From the human T2T-CHM13v2.0 reference genome, Homo sapiens: a DNA stretch of 64,000 nucleotides. Within the stretch, counting starts at the first letter, position 1. The number at the start of each line of letters is the position of its first letter. The stretch lies in NCBI RefSeq assembly GCF_009914755.1, contig NC_060935.1. One strand, written 5' to 3'. The notes beneath the pieces are model-generated. The model was not told the origin of the DNA and made no database searches. It worked only from the letters and a program-made list of their open reading frames with translations. Below, piece after piece: positions 3,620 through 9,834 of this stretch. Position numbers and translations under genes: made by a program.

Positions 3620-4644
3620 CAATTGCCACATTTCTAGTAACAGCTTTGCGTTCACATTAATTGATGAAAAGGGAATCTTTACTGCAACAGATAAAACTGA
3701 TTACATAACAAAGGAAGACCTGGCGTAGTGCGCTTAGCCAAATTAGCATTTGGCTCATCTCTGTATGGAGTGGCACAAGCCCATTTGTGTACCACTTAGT
3801 ATTTGGTTAAAATATGTATAAGATTTATAGCCACAATGATGTTCCTGGCCTTTTTAAACCTTACTATGGCCTTTCTACTTTTCAAGTTTTTCATTGATTA
3901 TTCTTATCTGGCTTTAAGAACTATAAACCACATTATCATACTTCACTGTAATTGTTAATACTAGTCTGGGATAGTTTTTTTTTTTTTTTTTTTTTTTTTT
4001 TTCCTTTATAAATGAGCAGGGCAGAGAGTTAAAACACAAAGCAATAGATTGCACTGAGAAATGAATACGTTCAGAAACTACAACTACAAACTACCTTAAA
4101 GGAAAACTCATTCACTTTTCATTACCTTACACCTCTAGGTGCCAAAACTTGCATTTAATTCCATGTTTTAAAGGAGACTTTATGTCTACCCATAATCTGT
4201 TCACATATAGTTTGCCCAAGGGAGGTTAACTCTTTTCAGTTAAAATTGATCCACCTTCATCAGACTTGTGGTTGACCAGCAAAGAGTCAAGGACATGAAT
4301 CTCTTAACACCTCCTGATGGTCTTGGGCTACACATATCATGCTCATTTTAAGTGTGGAAAACATCTAAAAATATACTTTTTAGAGTTTCAGAGAAATCAT
4401 ATTTACAGCTTCACAGAACAGAAAATATTAAACTTAATTTGATGCTTAACACCTAAAGTGTTATTTTCAAATCATAGAAAAATGCTTTTTGCATTCTAAA
4501 ATATCTCTGTAAGACAGCATAATTATTCTAAATAATTTTAATTAATTATGAGAAAGCTTACTTACAGTGATACTTTTTTTAATCAAAAATTTAGTTAGCA
4601 ATGATTATTAAGTTTAAAGGCCAGATACTCTGAACAAAACTACC

Positions 4645-4937
<293 letters not shown>

Positions 4938-5664
4938 ACAAACTGCCAGAGTCTTAGAAGTATTTCCAAGATCAGCAAATTGTCCAGCTTAATTGATACT
5001 GTACATATAAAAAATTTCCAATTCCTTATTTCTCTTTAGAGTTCATCATAATTAGTTTGTATTTTTAAAAATTTGATCCATATACTAAACTTATTGTTTC
5101 TTATGGACATAAAGGAAAGTTAGTTCAATCCATTTTAGGCAGGATGCTCAACCTTTCTAACCAAACACCTTAGGAATTAAAATATGAAATTTATCAATAA
5201 TCAATAAAAATGAAAATTTCATCATTGTTTCCCCACTTAATAGTATTAATCTGTACACATTAGATAATAAAACCTAGAAAATAAATTTCATTCATTTTTT
5301 TATGTACCAGAGTGAATTTGACTACTTTTCAAGAACATGAGGTATTACTTAGAGCCTAGTTAAAACACATGTGCTACATTGAACACACCTCATACTACAT
5401 AATAAATTTTAGTAAATGAAGTTCCTATCTATGTTTGTAGAATATAAGTGAAATGTTGGTTTCCTCACTGCATTTTAATAATAAGGAAAGAACTGATCTA
5501 TGTGAATGGGTATTGTAATATTAAGGTAAACTTTTAAAAGTTAATTTACAAATTTTCCTGACAAAGTATAAAGCTTGGGCTCTTGACTGTCTTCCCTTCT
5601 TTCCTACTTACCTCTCTCTCTCTACTTGCTTTCTTCCTTCCCTTCTGCCATCATTTTTCCTTTT

Positions 5665-6886
5665 CCCTCTCCTCTCCTCCCCTTCCCTCCCCTCTTCTCC
5701 CCTCCCCTCCCCTCCCCTCTTGTCCCCTCCTCTCTTCTCCCCTCCCCTCCCCTCCCCTCCCCTCTCCTCCCCTCCCCTCTCCTCCCCTCCCCTCTCCTCC
5801 CCTCTACTCCCCTCCCCTTTCCTCCCCTCCCCTCTCCTCTCCTCCCCTGTTCTCCCCTCCCCTCCCCTCCCCTCTCCTCTCCTCCCCTGTTCTCCCCTCC
5901 CCTCTCCTCCCCTGTTCTCCCCTCCTCTCCCCTCCCCTGTTCTCCCCTCCTCTCCCCTCTCCTCCCCTCCCCTCTCCTCTCCTCCCCTGTTCTCCCCTCC
6001 CCTCTCCTCCCCTGTTCTCCCCTCCCCTCCCCTCTTGTCCCCTCCCCTCTTCTCCCCTCCCCTCCCCTCCCCTCTTGTCCCCTCCCCTCCCCTCTTCTCC
6101 CCTCCCCTCCCGTCCCCTCCTCTCTTCTCCCCTCCCATCCCCTCCCCTCCCCTCTCCTCCCCTCCCCTCTCCTCCCCTCCCCTCTCCTCTCCACTCCTCC
6201 CCTCTCCTCTCCTCCCCTCCCCTCTTCTCCCCTCCCCTCCCCTCTTCTCCCCTCCCCTCCCCTCTTCTCCCCTCCCCTCCCGTCCCCTCCTCTCTTCTCC
6301 CCTCCCCTCCCCTCTTCTCCCCTCCCCTCCCGTCCCCTCCTCTCTTCTCCCCTCCCCTCCCCTCCCCTCCCCTCCCCTCTCCTCCCCTCCCCTCCCCTCC
6401 CCTCCCCTCTCCTCCCCTCTCCTCCCCTCTCCTCTCCACTCCTCCCCTCTCCTCTCCACTCCTCCCCTCTCCTCTCCTCCCCTCTCCTCCCCCTCCCCTC
6501 TCCTCCCCTCCCCTCCCCTCTCCTCCCCTCCCCTCCCCTCCCCTCTCCTCCCCTCCCCTCTCCTCTCCTCCCCTCCCCTCCCCTCCCCTCTCCTCCCCTC
6601 CCCTCCCCTCTCCTCCCCTCCCCTCTCCTCCCCTCCCCTCTCCTCCCCTCCCCTCCCCTCTCCTCCCCTCCCCTCCCCTCTCCTCCCCTCCCCTCCCCTC
6701 CCCTCCCCTCCCCTCTCCTCCCCTCCCCTCTCCTCCCCTCCCCTCCCCTCTCCTCCCCTCCCCTCCCCTCTCCTCCCCTCTCCTCCCCTCCCCTCCCCTC
6801 TCCTCCCCTCTCCTCCCCTCCCCTCTCTTCCCCTGTTCTCCCCTCCCCTCTCCTCCCCTCTCCTCCCCTCCCCTCCCCTCCCCTCC
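5665..6886. repeat. Polypyrimidine pentanucleotide array A, (CCCCT/CTCCT)n with variant units, about 1.2 kb
   Basis: Almost purely C/T on the + strand with 5-nt periodicity and interruptions cctgttct, cttgtc, ccgtc, ccac. Confidence 0.98.
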
Positions 6887-7300
6887 TTTCCTCAATATTA
6901 TAGCTAGTAGAATTTTCAGAAAATATTAAAAAATATAAAAGTAACATTTTTTCACACTCTCACTGTAATCTGAATTTGCTTGCAGCTCCAAAGAAGGTTT
7001 TTAGTAATGTCTTCAAAGAAACAATCTTCATAAGAAAAAAATAAACTAGTTTCCTCAAAATTCAGATTTTATTATATTTTTTCTCTTACAGAGTATTCAA
7101 AAGCTCTTCCTGGTCTCTCCACTTCATATGCTGCTTTGTTAAGAATTAAGAAGAGTTCATCTTCATCTCTCTTTGGTTCCAAAACCAGACCACGATACAG
7201 CAGCCCTTCATTAGGAACACTGAGTGCTTCTTCACCCAGCTGGCGAGGGGCAGCTCAGAATTATTATTCCCCCATCAGTCTTTATCATTCCTCAGATGCC
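6886..7300 (+). repeat. Direct repeat, copy 1 (unique portion); partner is 8596-9010
   Basis: Base-by-base comparison shows 4 substitutions in about 415 bp (6893, 7103, 7245, 7278). Confidence 0.97.
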
Positions 7301-7306
7301 AACTGA
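7092..7306 (+). pseudogene. CNTN5: Truncated duplicate of CNTN5 exon 4 (first 209 of 222 nt, donor lost) ending ...SDAN-stop
   Basis: 7092-7300 equals 8802-9010 (offset 1710) except 7103 g/t, 7245 g/t and 7278 g/a. The upstream acceptor region is identical. It is followed by AAC TGA (7301-7306) in frame. Confidence 0.95.
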
Positions 7307-7307
7307 G

Positions 7308-7685
7308 GAACCAGGCATTATTTTGTCGATAGATCCAAAATTGACAAAGGTAGACAACATCTAGAAAATGTTATTCAAACTATAAAGCCAATAGCTGTAG
7401 AGCAGTCTTTAATTTAACTGATATCTTAGTGTTGGATATATAGATTTTTTCTTATTTTCCATTCATAAGTAATGCTAAGTATATACTTATCTTTGCGTGC
7501 TCTCTTTATTATTTTCTTACACAGAATACACTTCCAGAAATAAAACCACTGGATTGAAGGATAGGTCTGTTTTATGTTTCCGATATTCACTGTCAAATTG
7601 GCCTTCCAAAAATGTCTATTTTTACTTTCATTCTACGAGAGTATTTAGTCTTAATCCTAAATTATAATTGGTATAGAGTGCAATT
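7308..7685 (-). repeat. 378-bp inverted copy of intron segment 9457-9834
   Basis: gaaccaggcattattttgtcgat...gtatagagtgcaatt is the reverse complement of aattgcactctatac...ataatgcctggttc. Only two mismatches were seen (7331, 7341). Confidence 0.97.
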
Positions 7686-7697
7686 CGAATAGAGTGC

Positions 7698-8596
7698 TCT
7701 CCTCCCCTCCCCTCCCCTCCCCTCCCCTCTCCTCCCCTCCCCTCCCCTCCCCTCCCCTCCCCTCCCCTCCCCTCCCCTCTCCTCCCCTGTTCTCCCCTCC
7801 TCTCCCCTCTCCTCCCCTCCCCTCTCCTCTCCTCCCCTGTTCTCCCCTCCCCTCTCCTCCCCTGTTCTCCCCTCCCCTCCCCTCTTGTCCCCTCCCCTCC
7901 CCTCTTGTCCCCTCCCCTCTTCTCCCCTCCCCTCCCCTCTTGTCCCCTCCCCTCTTCTCCCCTCCCCTCCCCTCTTCTCCCCTCCCCTCCCGTCCCCTCC
8001 CCTCCCCTCCCGTCCCCTCCTCTCTTCTCCCCTCCCCTCCCCTCCCCTCCCCTCTCCTCCCCTCCCCTCTCCTCCCCTCTCCTCCCCTCCCCTCCCCTCT
8101 CCTCCCCTCTCCTCCCCTCCCCTCTCCTCCCCTCCCCTCTCCTCCCCTCCCCTCTCCTCCCCTGTTCTCCCCTCCCCTCTCCTCCCCTGTTCTCCCCTCC
8201 CCTCTCCTCCCCTGTTCTCCCCTCCCCTCTCCTCCCCTGTTCTCCCCTCCCCTCTCCTCCCCTGTTCTCCCCCTCCCCTCTCCTCCCCTGTTCTCTCCTC
8301 CCCTCCCCTCTCCTCCCCTCCCCTCCCCTCTCTACTCCTCCCCTCTCCTCTCCTCCCCTCCCCTCTCCTCTCCTCCCCTGTTCTCCCCTCTCCTCCCCTG
8401 TTCTCCCCTCCCCTCTCCTCCCCTGTTCTCCCCTCCCCTCCCCTCTCCTCCCCTCCCCTCTCCTCCCCTCCCCTCCCCTCCCCTCCCCTCCCCTCTCCTC
8501 CCCTCCCCTCCCCTCTCCTCCCCTCCCCTCTCTTCCCCTGTTCTCCCCTCCCCTCTCCTCCCCTCTCCTCCCCTCCCCTCCCCTCCCCTCCCCTCC
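7698..8596. repeat. Polypyrimidine pentanucleotide array B, (CCCCT/CTCCT)n, about 0.9 kb
   Basis: Same units and the same terminal segment (tcttcccctgttctcccctc...ccctcctttcct) as array A. Confidence 0.98.
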
Positions 8597-8801
8597 TTTC
8601 CTTAATATTATAGCTAGTAGAATTTTCAGAAAATATTAAAAAATATAAAAGTAACATTTTTTCACACTCTCACTGTAATCTGAATTTGCTTGCAGCTCCA
8701 AAGAAGGTTTTTAGTAATGTCTTCAAAGAAACAATCTTCATAAGAAAAAAATAAACTAGTTTCCTCAAAATTCAGATTTTATTATATTTTTTCTCTTACA
8801 G

Positions 8802-9023
8802 AGTATTCAAAATCTCTTCCTGGTCTCTCCACTTCATATGCTGCTTTGTTAAGAATTAAGAAGAGTTCATCTTCATCTCTCTTTGGTTCCAAAACCAGAC
8901 CACGATACAGCAGCCCTTCATTAGGAACACTGAGTGCTTCTTCACCCAGCTGGCTAGGGGCAGCTCAGAATTATTATTCCCCCATCAATCTTTATCATTC
9001 CTCAGATGCCTTCAAACAAGATG
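8802..9023 (+). CDS. CNTN5: CNTN5 coding exon (exon 4), 222 nt, phase 1-1, encodes (E)[73 protein letters not shown] (residues 19-92)
   Basis: Acceptor ttttttctcttacag|AG at 8801/8802, donor GATG|gtaagt at 9023/9024. The translation matches the contactin-5 N-terminal extension after the signal peptide. Length is 74 codons and it splices in frame to the exon at 34088. Confidence 0.97.
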
Positions 9024-9028
9024 GTAAG

Positions 9029-9390
9029 TGTCAAAGGAAAATGGCTCCAGATAGAATAAAGGAGGCAAAGAAGACTTATTTAATACTGTTGCAACAGAGA
9101 TCAAGACTATTCCAGTAGGAGAGAGTGATTGAACTCAACTCTGCTAAAAATGAAAGCAGGAGAGTTTTTAAAGCTGGGGTGAGCTAGTAGAAAACTGGAG
9201 GATGTTAGGGGAGATACTGGTAAATGTGACTAGGCCATCTGTGTTTATTGATTGGTGCTTGTTGAAGTTAGGCTACTACCTTTTCATAGAGACTGGGAGA
9301 TAGAGAACCTGTTTCTTGATGGTTTCATTTCAAATGGAGAGCTCCCAGGCCTTGAGACAGACACTACTGGGTTATAAAAATGACAAGAGC
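9029..9390 (-). mobile_element. MER67-like (ERV1) LTR fragment abutting the exon-4 donor
   Basis: tgtcaaagg start; attgaactcaactc, ggggtgagctagt, taggccatctgtgttt, gaagttaggct and agagactgggagatag match my recall of the MER67C consensus. Confidence 0.65.
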
Positions 9391-9456: not shown

Positions 9457-9834
9457 AATTGCACTCTATACCAATTATAATTTAGGATTAAGACTAAATA
9501 CTCTCGTAGAATGAAAGTAAAAATAGACATTTTTGGAAGGCCAATTTGACAGTGAATATCGGAAACATAAAACAGACCTATCCTTCAATCCAGTGGTTTT
9601 ATTTCTGGAAGTGTATTCTGTGTAAGAAAATAATAAAGAGAGCACGCAAAGATAAGTATATACTTAGCATTACTTATGAATGGAAAATAAGAAAAAATCT
9701 ATATATCCAACACTAAGATATCAGTTAAATTAAAGACTGCTCTACAGCTATTGGCTTTATAGTTTGAATAACATTTTCTAGATGTTGTCTACCTTTGTCA
9801 TTTTTGGATCCATCGACAAAATAATGCCTGGTTC
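9457..9834 (+). repeat. Source arm of the 378-bp inverted repeat; largely an old L1M/L1ME ORF2 3' fragment
   Basis: Reverse complement of 7308-7685. The stretch ggaaggccaatttgacagtgaatatc...cctatccttcaatccagtggttttatttctggaa resembles degenerate L1 ORF2 end sequence (subfamily uncertain). Confidence 0.85.

What the first reader, a model, noticed from the sequence alone, without database searches (positions are those of the whole stretch)
7103..7306. The three exonic differences between copies are S23A, L70R and N81S: catalogued CNTN5 missense 'SNPs' may be paralogous variants
Seen directly: copy 1 versus copy 2 gives GCT/TCT (7103/8813), CGA/CTA (7245/8955) and AGT/AAT (7278/8988). With E19 as the first residue these are S23A, L70R and N81S, all non-synonymous and all changes to G. 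From memory (unverified), these same three changes are listed as common natural variants of human CNTN5. Inference: reads from the decoy copy collapsing onto a single-copy reference would produce these calls, plus a false stop-gain insertion after c.264 beginning AACTGAGGAACC, even though the functional exon here is S23/L70/N81. This matters for variant interpretation in a neurodevelopmental candidate gene.
Basis: partly seen in the sequence, partly recalled or inferred. Interest (0 to 1): 0.8.

Follow-up and report, generated by a model that had tools for sequence, protein, structure and literature searches.

The report
Truncated relic copy of CNTN5 exon 4
Just upstream of a coding exon of the brain gene CNTN5, this human genome carries an old, broken extra copy of that exon that still holds two ancestral amino acids, and it probably makes some missense and stop variants appear in short-read databases that are not in the working gene.

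Summary
Window 6881-7300 repeats 8591-9010 (offset 1710, 416 of 420 bases identical). Three of the four differences lie in exon 4: S23A, L70R and N81S. The copy breaks after c.264 and reads N, then stop.

The structure is a complex duplication. The truncated exon copy is followed by 7 filler bases, an inverted copy of intron 9457-9834, a short templated filler, and a second polypyrimidine repeat. This points to template switching.

A23 and R70 are ancestral in mammals, so the relic keeps the old residues and the working exon changed (G to T, twice). Only S81 is new in the relic.

The paralogous-variant idea is partly supported.
- S23A is catalogued as rs10790978. Sanger sequencing specific to the working exon in 302 Japanese patients gave a frequency of 0.146.
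- A 60,000-genome short-read panel gives 0.405 for S23A and flags it as failing filters.
- L70R and N81S were absent from the working exon in those 302 people.
- Swedish genomes show 4 CNTN5 loss-of-function calls on GRCh37 and GRCh38, and 0 on CHM13.

So S23A is real but inflated. I could not inspect GRCh38 or confirm that L70R and N81S are catalogued.

The parts
5587..6895 (.). Polypyrimidine (CCCCT/CCTCT)n repeat tract 1, upstream of the relic exon copy
   Evidence: TRF array 5665-6886, periods 15/20/25. 98.5% pyrimidine on the + strand. Masked as repeat in the hub table.
6896..7091 (+). Copy of the intron end and 3' splice region of exon 4 (matches 8606-8801)
   Evidence: Offset-1710 identity, with no mismatch in 6896-7091; the intronic mismatch 6893 C/T lies 3 bases upstream, at the end of the repeat-masked tract. 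AG acceptor at 7090-7091.
7092..7300 (+). Truncated relic copy of CNTN5 exon 4, c.56 to c.264
   Evidence: It differs from 8802-9010 at three bases only.
7103..7105 (+). Codon 23: GCT (Ala) in the relic, TCT (Ser) at 8813-8815. The relic allele is ancestral.
   Evidence: A in 38 of 45 mammalian proteins. This is rs10790978.
7244..7246 (+). Codon 70: CGA (Arg) in the relic, CTA (Leu) at 8954-8956. The relic allele is ancestral.
   Evidence: R in 40 of 45 proteins and L in 0 of 45. R in chimpanzee, macaque, mouse, rat, chicken, frog and dog in Table S3 of PMC11781355.
7277..7279 (+). Codon 81: AGT (Ser) in the relic, AAT (Asn) at 8987-8989. The relic allele is derived.
   Evidence: N in 40 of 45 proteins, S in 4, gap in 1.
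7301..7307 (+). Junction 1: 7-nt filler AACTGAG matching neither parent. It creates Asn89 then TGA at 7304-7306.
7308..7685 (-). Inverted copy of intron segment 9457-9834
   Evidence: BLAST minus-strand match, 378 nt, 99.47%. The 2 mismatches are at 7331 and 7341. Not masked as repeat in the hub table.
7686..7697 (+). Junction 2: filler CGA followed by a second copy (7689-7697) of ATAGAGTGC, first seen at 7673-7681. Its last base, 7697, is also the first base of repeat tract 2.
   Evidence: junction print.
7697..8604 (.). Polypyrimidine repeat tract 2 (duplicated part of the tract)
   Evidence: TRF 7697-8596. 97.9% pyrimidine. 21-47 of 50 bases match tract 1 at offset 1710, which is not decisive in such a repeat.
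8802..9023 (+). Working CNTN5 exon 4 (c.56-c.277; S23, L70, N81), with donor GTAAGT at 9024
   Evidence: Hub annotation NM_014361.4. The donor matches 8 of 9 consensus positions.
9457..9834 (+). Intron segment that served as template for the inverted copy

Best explanation
CHM13 carries a 1.71-kb complex duplication immediately upstream of CNTN5 exon 4. Its order is: polypyrimidine repeat, intron end with splice acceptor, exon 4 up to c.264, 7 filler bases, an inverted copy of a 378-nt intron piece that normally lies 447-824 nt downstream of the break, a short filler that re-copies 9 nearby bases, and then the repeat and the intact exon. This layout is best explained by two template switches during replication (FoSTeS/MMBIR type), or by related templated end joining. 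The left breakpoint lies inside an H-DNA-prone polypyrimidine tract. This mechanism is inferred.

The truncated copy is a non-coding relic: it has no usable splice donor and a stop follows the break at once. The relic is old (6 differences in 798 nt). It preserves the ancestral Ala23 and Arg70, which the working human exon has since replaced by Ser and Leu. It gained Ser81 itself.

GRCh37 and GRCh38 probably lack the relic; this is inferred and was not inspected. On such a reference, short reads from the relic pile onto exon 4. They would imitate S23A, L70R and N81S with falling allele fraction, and produce clipped reads or a stop-gain insertion after c.264. S23A is in addition a true polymorphism of the working exon. 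L70R and N81S appear not to be, at least in Japanese.
For: Structure:
- Searches show the direct copy, the inverted copy and both junction fillers.

Relic status:
- The stop comes right after the junction.
- No GT in 7092-7700 matches at least 7 of 9 positions of MAG|GTRAGT, against 8 of 9 for the true donor.

Age:
- 6 of 798 bases differ, 0.75% with Poisson 95% interval 0.28-1.64%.

Polarity:
- One search gives A23 in 38 of 45, R70 in 40 of 45 (L in 0) and N81 in 40 of 45 mammalian proteins.
- (Table S3 of PMC11781355) shows R70 in 7 of 8 non-human vertebrates, including chimpanzee.

Contamination of variant calls:
- The Sanger forward primer matches both copies, but the reverse primer matches only 9091-9113, so Sanger reads the working exon alone.
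- Sanger S23A frequency is 0.146. ToMMo 60KJPN gives 0.405 and marks it filter-failed. The ratio is 2.78 (binomial p about 1e-43).
- I530V, S1079T and K349N in the same table differ by factors of 1.05, 1.13 and 0.74.
- L70R and N81S are absent from the 12 variants found in 302 patients.
- SweGen loss-of-function counts for CNTN5 are 0 on T2T-CHM13, 4 on GRCh37 and 4 on GRCh38.
- Of 150-nt reads from the relic covering c.67, c.209 and c.242, 150, 56 and 23 of 150 lie wholly inside the homology.

Known phenomenon:
- Passages of bioRxiv 10.1101/2021.07.12.452063 and PMC9942314 describe false variants from paralogs missing in GRCh38.
Against: - I could not read GRCh38, so the absence of the relic there is inferred only from the inflated frequency and the loss-of-function counts.
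- The positions of the four Swedish loss-of-function calls are not given. Many other genes with 0 on CHM13 in that table are renamed symbols or known duplicated families.
- No source seen here shows that L70R, N81S or a c.264 insertion are catalogued at all.
- S23A is real in the intact exon, so it is not simply a phantom.
- The panel frequency of 0.405 is below the 0.5 or more expected if every chromosome carried the relic. So the relic must be polymorphic (about 0.39-0.54 in a simple model) or genotype calling is partial.
- The comparison is between patients and a population panel.
- The Sanger genotypes themselves show a heterozygote excess (215/86/1, exact p 0.0096) that I cannot explain.
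Confidence: 0.7

Rival explanations
1. All three differences are ordinary polymorphisms of the intact exon (ancestral alleles still segregating). The relic plays no part in what databases list.
For: A23 and R70 are ancestral, so retained ancestral alleles are plausible. S23A is seen by Sanger sequencing specific to the working exon in 87 of 302 patients.
Against: L70R and N81S were seen in 0 of 302 patients by the same amplicon. The S23A panel frequency is 2.78 times the Sanger value and failed filters, while three control variants agree. S81 is not ancestral.
Confidence: 0.1
2. GRCh38 also contains the relic. The filter failure and odd frequency of S23A come from ambiguous mapping between two near-identical copies, not from a collapsed reference.
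For: The copies differ at only 4 of 420 bases, so many reads would have low mapping quality on any reference. An old duplication could well be in the reference clone.
Against: With both copies present, relic reads match the relic perfectly, so the exon frequency should fall or stay level rather than rise 2.78 fold. CNTN5 loss-of-function calls differ between GRCh38 (4) and CHM13 (0).
Confidence: 0.15
3. The real S23A polymorphism of the working exon was created by sequence exchange with the relic. This could be gene conversion, or unequal crossing-over between c.67 and c.209 that deletes the relic and leaves a hybrid A23-L70-N81 exon.
For: The copies share about 420 unique bases plus about 900 bases of repeat in direct orientation. 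The only relic allele seen in the working exon is the leftmost one, as a single crossover would give.
Against: A23 is ancestral, so simple incomplete fixation of Ser23 explains the same data with no exchange. There are no haplotype data.
Confidence: 0.15
4. The relic acts in splicing. Its intact acceptor works as a decoy or poison exon and lowers or modulates inclusion of exon 4, which is itself an alternative cassette exon.
For: The 196 bases upstream of the relic acceptor (6896-7091) are identical to those of the true exon. A stop follows the break. Exon 4 (74 residues) is skipped in NM_175566.2 according to PMC11781355.
Against: No donor-like site with at least 7 of 9 consensus matches exists in 7092-7700. 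The selected RefSeq transcript has no exon there (hub table). I saw no expression data.
Confidence: 0.07
5. The duplication is an assembly error of CHM13.
For: It borders a 1-kb low-complexity repeat, a kind of place where assemblies can fail.
Against: The copies differ by 6 substitutions. The repeat tracts differ in length (1222 against 900 nt). The junction carries an inverted segment and fillers. Two relic alleles match the ancestral state, which an error would not produce. CHM13 is effectively haploid; that point is from recall.
Confidence: 0.02

Closest known systems
Paralogous sequence variants from duplications missing ('collapsed') in GRCh38, such as KCNJ18/KCNJ12, GPRIN2, MAP2K3 and FANCD2
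   Same: Reads from a copy absent from the reference map onto the retained copy and appear as heterozygous variants with excess heterozygosity and depth. Mapping to T2T-CHM13 removes them. Passages read in bioRxiv 10.1101/2021.07.12.452063 and PMC9942314.
   Different: The extra copy here is only 1.7 kb, holds part of one exon, lies in tandem inside the same gene, and is probably polymorphic rather than a reference assembly error. CNTN5 is not named in the main text of either paper; I did not see their supplementary lists.
Complex duplications with an inverted segment made by replicative template switching (FoSTeS/MMBIR; names and concept recalled, no paper read here)
   Same: A direct duplication is joined through an inverted copy of nearby sequence. 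Both junctions have short insertions, one of them re-copied from 16 nt away. One breakpoint lies in a structure-prone polypurine/polypyrimidine tract.
   Different: It is very small (under 2 kb) and old. No microhomology is visible at junction 1, where 7 untemplated bases sit. Theta-mediated end joining after breaks would give similar junctions.
Poison or decoy exons that introduce premature stops
   Same: An intact acceptor is followed by an in-frame stop, upstream of an alternatively used exon.
   Different: There is no credible donor and no transcript evidence, so membership is not shown.

Membership tests
Paralogous-sequence-variant artefact from a copy missing in the reference | A second near-identical copy exists in real genomes | tested here: met
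   416 of 420 bases identical at offset 1710 in CHM13.
Paralogous-sequence-variant artefact from a copy missing in the reference | The copy is absent from the reference used for calling (GRCh37/GRCh38) | not testable with these tools
   No GRCh38 sequence is available here. The only evidence is indirect: the 2.78-fold inflated frequency and loss-of-function counts of 4, 4 and 0.
Paralogous-sequence-variant artefact from a copy missing in the reference | The catalogued alternate alleles equal the paralog's bases | tested here: inconclusive
   Met for S23A (rs10790978 T>G matches relic G at 7103). For L70R and N81S I found no catalogue entry or paper.
Paralogous-sequence-variant artefact from a copy missing in the reference | Excess heterozygosity, filter failure or inflated frequency in short-read data, compared with a copy-specific assay | tested here: met
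   ToMMo gives 0.405 and marks it as failing filters; Sanger gives 0.146. Control variants agree. This was shown for S23A only.
Paralogous-sequence-variant artefact from a copy missing in the reference | The variant is absent from the true locus when assayed specifically | tested here: inconclusive
   Met for L70R and N81S (0 of 302). Not met for S23A (87 of 302 carry G). One population only.
Template-switch (FoSTeS/MMBIR-type) complex duplication | Direct duplication joined to an inverted copy of nearby sequence | tested here: met
   7308-7685 is the reverse complement of 9457-9834.
Template-switch (FoSTeS/MMBIR-type) complex duplication | Microhomology or short templated insertions at junctions | tested here: inconclusive
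   Junction 2 has a 9-nt local re-copy. Junction 1 has 7 bases of unknown origin and no microhomology.
Poison or decoy exon | Both splice sites usable, and inclusion seen in RNA | tested here: not met
   The acceptor is intact, but there is no donor with at least 7 of 9 consensus matches. RNA evidence cannot be tested here.

The most novel reading that the evidence does not exclude
An old structural polymorphism of the human lineage, absent from GRCh37 and GRCh38, sits 1.7 kb upstream of CNTN5 exon 4 at intermediate frequency. It would have three effects. It would seed phantom L70R, N81S and stop-gain calls and inflate S23A in every short-read database. It would exchange sequence with the working exon, so that the real S23A polymorphism is a conversion or crossover product of the relic. 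Through its intact acceptor, it would shift inclusion of the alternatively spliced N-terminal exon of a neurodevelopmental adhesion gene.
Probability: 0.12. Interest if true: 0.65.

Novelty: new member of a known kind. Interest (0 to 1): 0.45.

Why it matters
CNTN5 is screened in autism and hyperacusis studies, and exon 4 encodes its unique N-terminal extension.

If GRCh38 lacks the relic, exon 4 missense frequencies and some CNTN5 loss-of-function calls in short-read resources are unreliable. That affects constraint scores, burden tests and clinical filtering. One published study already met a filter-failed S23A and a poorly performing assay in this exon without knowing why.

The relic also dates and polarises two human-lineage amino-acid changes. 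One is R70L, at a site conserved from frog to chimpanzee.

Mapping to T2T-CHM13, or adding the 1.7-kb segment as a decoy, would be a simple remedy.

Tried and rejected
No paper pairs CNTN5 with L70R, N81S, Leu70Arg, Asn81Ser or the reverse names. rs10790978 occurs in one paper only. Guessed neighbouring rs numbers gave nothing. No paper pairs CNTN5 with CHM13; the word-start rule may miss 'T2T-CHM13' written as one word. A search on archaic humans listed nothing that names CNTN5.
- Mercati et al. (PMC5378808): neither the main text nor the three held supplements list these variants.
- The published Science version of the T2T variation paper is not held under the two ids I tried, so I could not see its table of putative collapsed regions.
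- A search with the relic's stop-to-stop reading frame (7034-7303), looking for the relic in other people's data, returned 10 proteins. The best was 91% identical and none was human-identical, so it gave no information on frequency.
- Aligning the two repeat tracts to place the left breakpoint was not decisive, because the sequence is low-complexity.
- Error-prone repair synthesis as the source of the three 'to G' changes is rejected for c.67 and c.209, because the relic alleles there are ancestral.
- Selection inferred from three of three non-synonymous differences is rejected as uninformative. My estimate, not computed here, is that roughly 0.4 of random triplets would be all non-synonymous.

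Full report
**Observation**

Reading 6800-9300, comparing at a fixed offset and running BLAST all show the same thing. Window 6881-7300 repeats 8591-9010 at an offset of 1710 bases, without gaps, with 416 of 420 bases identical (99.05%). These are the only two copies in the 64-kb window.

The mismatches in unique sequence are:
- 6893 C/T, in the intron;
- 7103 G / 8813 T;
- 7245 G / 8955 T;
- 7278 G / 8988 A.

The annotated exon (8802-9023) starts with the second base of codon 19. Translations therefore give Ser23, Leu70 and Asn81 in the annotated exon, and Ala23, Arg70 and Ser81 in the upstream copy. A gibbon-cluster contactin-5 aligns to residues 20-92, which confirms the numbering.

Homology ends after 7300/9010, which is c.264 (Ala88). 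The upstream copy then reads AAC TGA.

**What the structure is**

The 393 bases after the break are not random. Bases 7308-7685 are the reverse complement of intron 9457-9834 (378 nt, 2 mismatches). That segment normally lies 447-824 nt downstream of the break point.

The junctions look like this:
- Between the exon copy and the inverted piece lie 7 bases (AACTGAG) that match neither parent.
- After the inverted piece come CGA and a second copy of ATAGAGTGC, first seen 16 nt earlier.
- The sequence then enters a second polypyrimidine repeat (7697-8596), which leads into the intact exon.

The first repeat tract (5665-6886) is 1222 nt and the second is 900 nt. They are 98.5% and 97.9% pyrimidine on the + strand.

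The layout is therefore: repeat, acceptor plus exon to c.264, filler, inverted intron piece, templated filler, repeat, intact exon. I read this as two template switches during replication, first to the opposite strand a few hundred bases ahead and then back into the repeat. The repeat is a likely fork-stalling site. This mechanism is inferred from the anatomy. Templated end joining after breaks would leave similar junctions.

An assembly error is very unlikely. The copies differ by substitutions, tract length and an inverted insert, and two of the relic's alleles match the ancestral state.

**Is the upstream copy functional?**

It has the same acceptor region as the true exon: 6896-7091 is identical. 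A stop follows the break at once. No GT between 7092 and 7700 matches at least 7 of 9 positions of the donor consensus, whereas the true donor matches 8 of 9. I therefore treat it as a relic and not as an exon.

A role as a splicing decoy cannot be excluded. Exon 4 is itself skipped in one isoform (NM_175566.2, as stated in PMC11781355; passage).

**Direction of the changes**

A search with the exon peptide returned 45 non-human mammalian proteins or fragments. These are cluster representatives and some species appear twice. Aligned:

| Position | Majority residue | Others |
|---|---|---|
| 23 | Ala in 38 of 45 | Ser 1, Thr 3, Val 3 |
| 70 | Arg in 40 of 45 | Gln 4, Pro 1, Leu 0 |
| 81 | Asn in 40 of 45 | Ser 4, gap 1 |

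Supplementary Table 3 of PMC11781355 (read) shows WRGAA in chimpanzee, macaque, mouse, rat, chicken and dog, WRERA in frog, and WLGAA in human.

So the relic keeps the ancestral Ala23 and Arg70, and the working human exon changed G to T twice. Only Ser81 arose in the relic. It also rules out error-prone repair synthesis as the source of those two differences.

Six differences in 798 unique bases (0.75%, interval 0.28-1.64%) mark the duplication as old. It is not a private event of CHM13.

**Are the variants catalogued, and are they artefacts?**

Only one paper in the library bears on this: Hadi et al. 2025 (PMC11781355). I read its Methods, Results, Supplementary Tables 1-5 and passages of the Discussion.

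What that paper reports:
- It Sanger-sequenced all coding exons in 302 Japanese patients.
- Its exon-4 forward primer matches both copies (6969 and 8679). Its reverse primer matches only 9091-9113, beside the intact exon. The normal 435-bp product therefore reads the working exon alone.
- It lists S23A as rs10790978 (GRCh38 chr11:99,819,555 T/G) with genotypes 215/86/1.

My calculations on those numbers:
- The Sanger frequency of S23A is 0.146, so the panel value is 2.78 times higher (binomial p about 1e-43).
- Three other variants in the same table differ between Sanger and panel by factors of 1.05 (I530V), 1.13 (S1079T) and 0.74 (K349N).
- L70R and N81S are not among the 12 variants found.

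Two conclusions follow. S23A is a genuine polymorphism of the intact exon, and the ancestral allele survives there. Its short-read frequency is inflated in the way expected if G-bearing relic reads are added. In Japanese, Arg70 and Ser81 do not occur in the intact exon at detectable frequency. I could not confirm that they are listed.

I also fitted a simple model. It assumes a reference without the relic and a heterozygous call whenever both bases are present. It reproduces 0.405 if about 46% of haplotypes carry no G anywhere. That puts the relic at roughly 0.39-0.54 frequency, and predicts 77% apparent heterozygotes against 48% under Hardy-Weinberg, which would fail a filter. This is an inference and not a measurement.

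**A second, independent hint**

Supplemental Table S4 of the SweGen re-mapping study (PMC12581843) has columns T2T-CHM13, GRCh37 and GRCh38. It lists CNTN5 with 0, 4 and 4 loss-of-function variants. This runs against the paper's overall trend of more such calls on CHM13 (passages).

In the block of genes with 0 on CHM13 shown, most have 1-3 on the older references. CNTN5 is one of roughly fifty with 4 or more on both; this is my hand count and was not scripted. Many of the others are known duplicated families or renamed symbols.

This fits relic-junction reads being called as truncating variants on references that lack the relic. The positions are not given, so it remains suggestive.

**Predictions from geometry**

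Of the 150-nt reads from the relic that cover c.67, all 150 of 150 lie inside the homology. For c.209 the figure is 56 of 150, and for c.242 it is 23 of 150. The phantom allele fraction should therefore fall from S23A to N81S, with clipping that begins AACTGAGGAACC.

**Comparison with what is known**

False variants from paralogs missing in GRCh38 are well described (passages). CNTN5 is not named in the main text of either paper, and I could not see their supplementary region lists.

This case is smaller than those, lies within the gene, and is probably a polymorphism rather than a reference error. It is a new member of a known kind.

**Open points**

- Whether GRCh38 has the relic.
- Whether L70R and N81S are catalogued.
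- The unexplained heterozygote excess in the Sanger genotypes (exact p 0.0096).
- Whether the A23 allele of the working exon is retained from the ancestor or came from the relic by exchange.
- Whether the relic's acceptor affects splicing.

**Verdict**

The find is useful for variant interpretation in CNTN5 exon 4 and of moderate general interest.

Noticed in passing
window 5665-6886 and 7697-8596: Two polypyrimidine (CCCCT/CCTCT)n tracts, 98.5% and 97.9% C+T on the + strand. The longest uninterrupted pyrimidine run is 376 nt. They end about 200 nt upstream of the exon 4 acceptor and of its relic. This is a likely H-DNA-forming, length-variable tract, and the left breakpoint of the duplication lies inside it.
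   Followed up: partly
window 8954-8956 (codon 70) and 8813-8815 (codon 23): The working human exon carries Leu70 where chimpanzee, macaque, rodents, dog, chicken and frog have Arg. It carries Ser23 where most mammals have Ala. These are two amino-acid changes on the human lineage in a 74-residue exon, and one of them (S23) is still polymorphic.
   Followed up: partly
window 7203-7308 and 8913-9018: The published TaqMan assay for W69G (PMC11781355, Table S2) has a forward primer and VIC probe that match both copies perfectly. Its reverse primer has 6 mismatches on the relic, all on its 5' side. The authors report a low call rate (90.5% in controls) that they could not explain.
   Followed up: partly
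PMC11781355 Table 2 (exon at window 8802-9023): Sanger genotypes for S23A (215/86/1) show a heterozygote excess: 6.4 homozygotes expected, exact p 0.0096. No explanation was found.
   Followed up: partly
PMC12581843 Supplemental Table S4: CNTN5 has 0 loss-of-function variants when 1000 Swedish genomes are mapped to T2T-CHM13, but 4 on GRCh37 and 4 on GRCh38. Positions are not given.
   Followed up: partly
window 4635-4940: An Alu-like element in reverse orientation (poly-T head, then GAGACAGGGTCTTGCC...) lies upstream of the repeat tract. It appears unrelated to the duplication.
   Followed up: no
proteins P0003, P0008, P0039, P0044, P0046-P0051: Short unnamed reading frames from metagenome or read-archive contigs are really mammalian CNTN5 exon 4 with flanking intron read through, that is, host DNA. 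None is human-identical.
   Followed up: no
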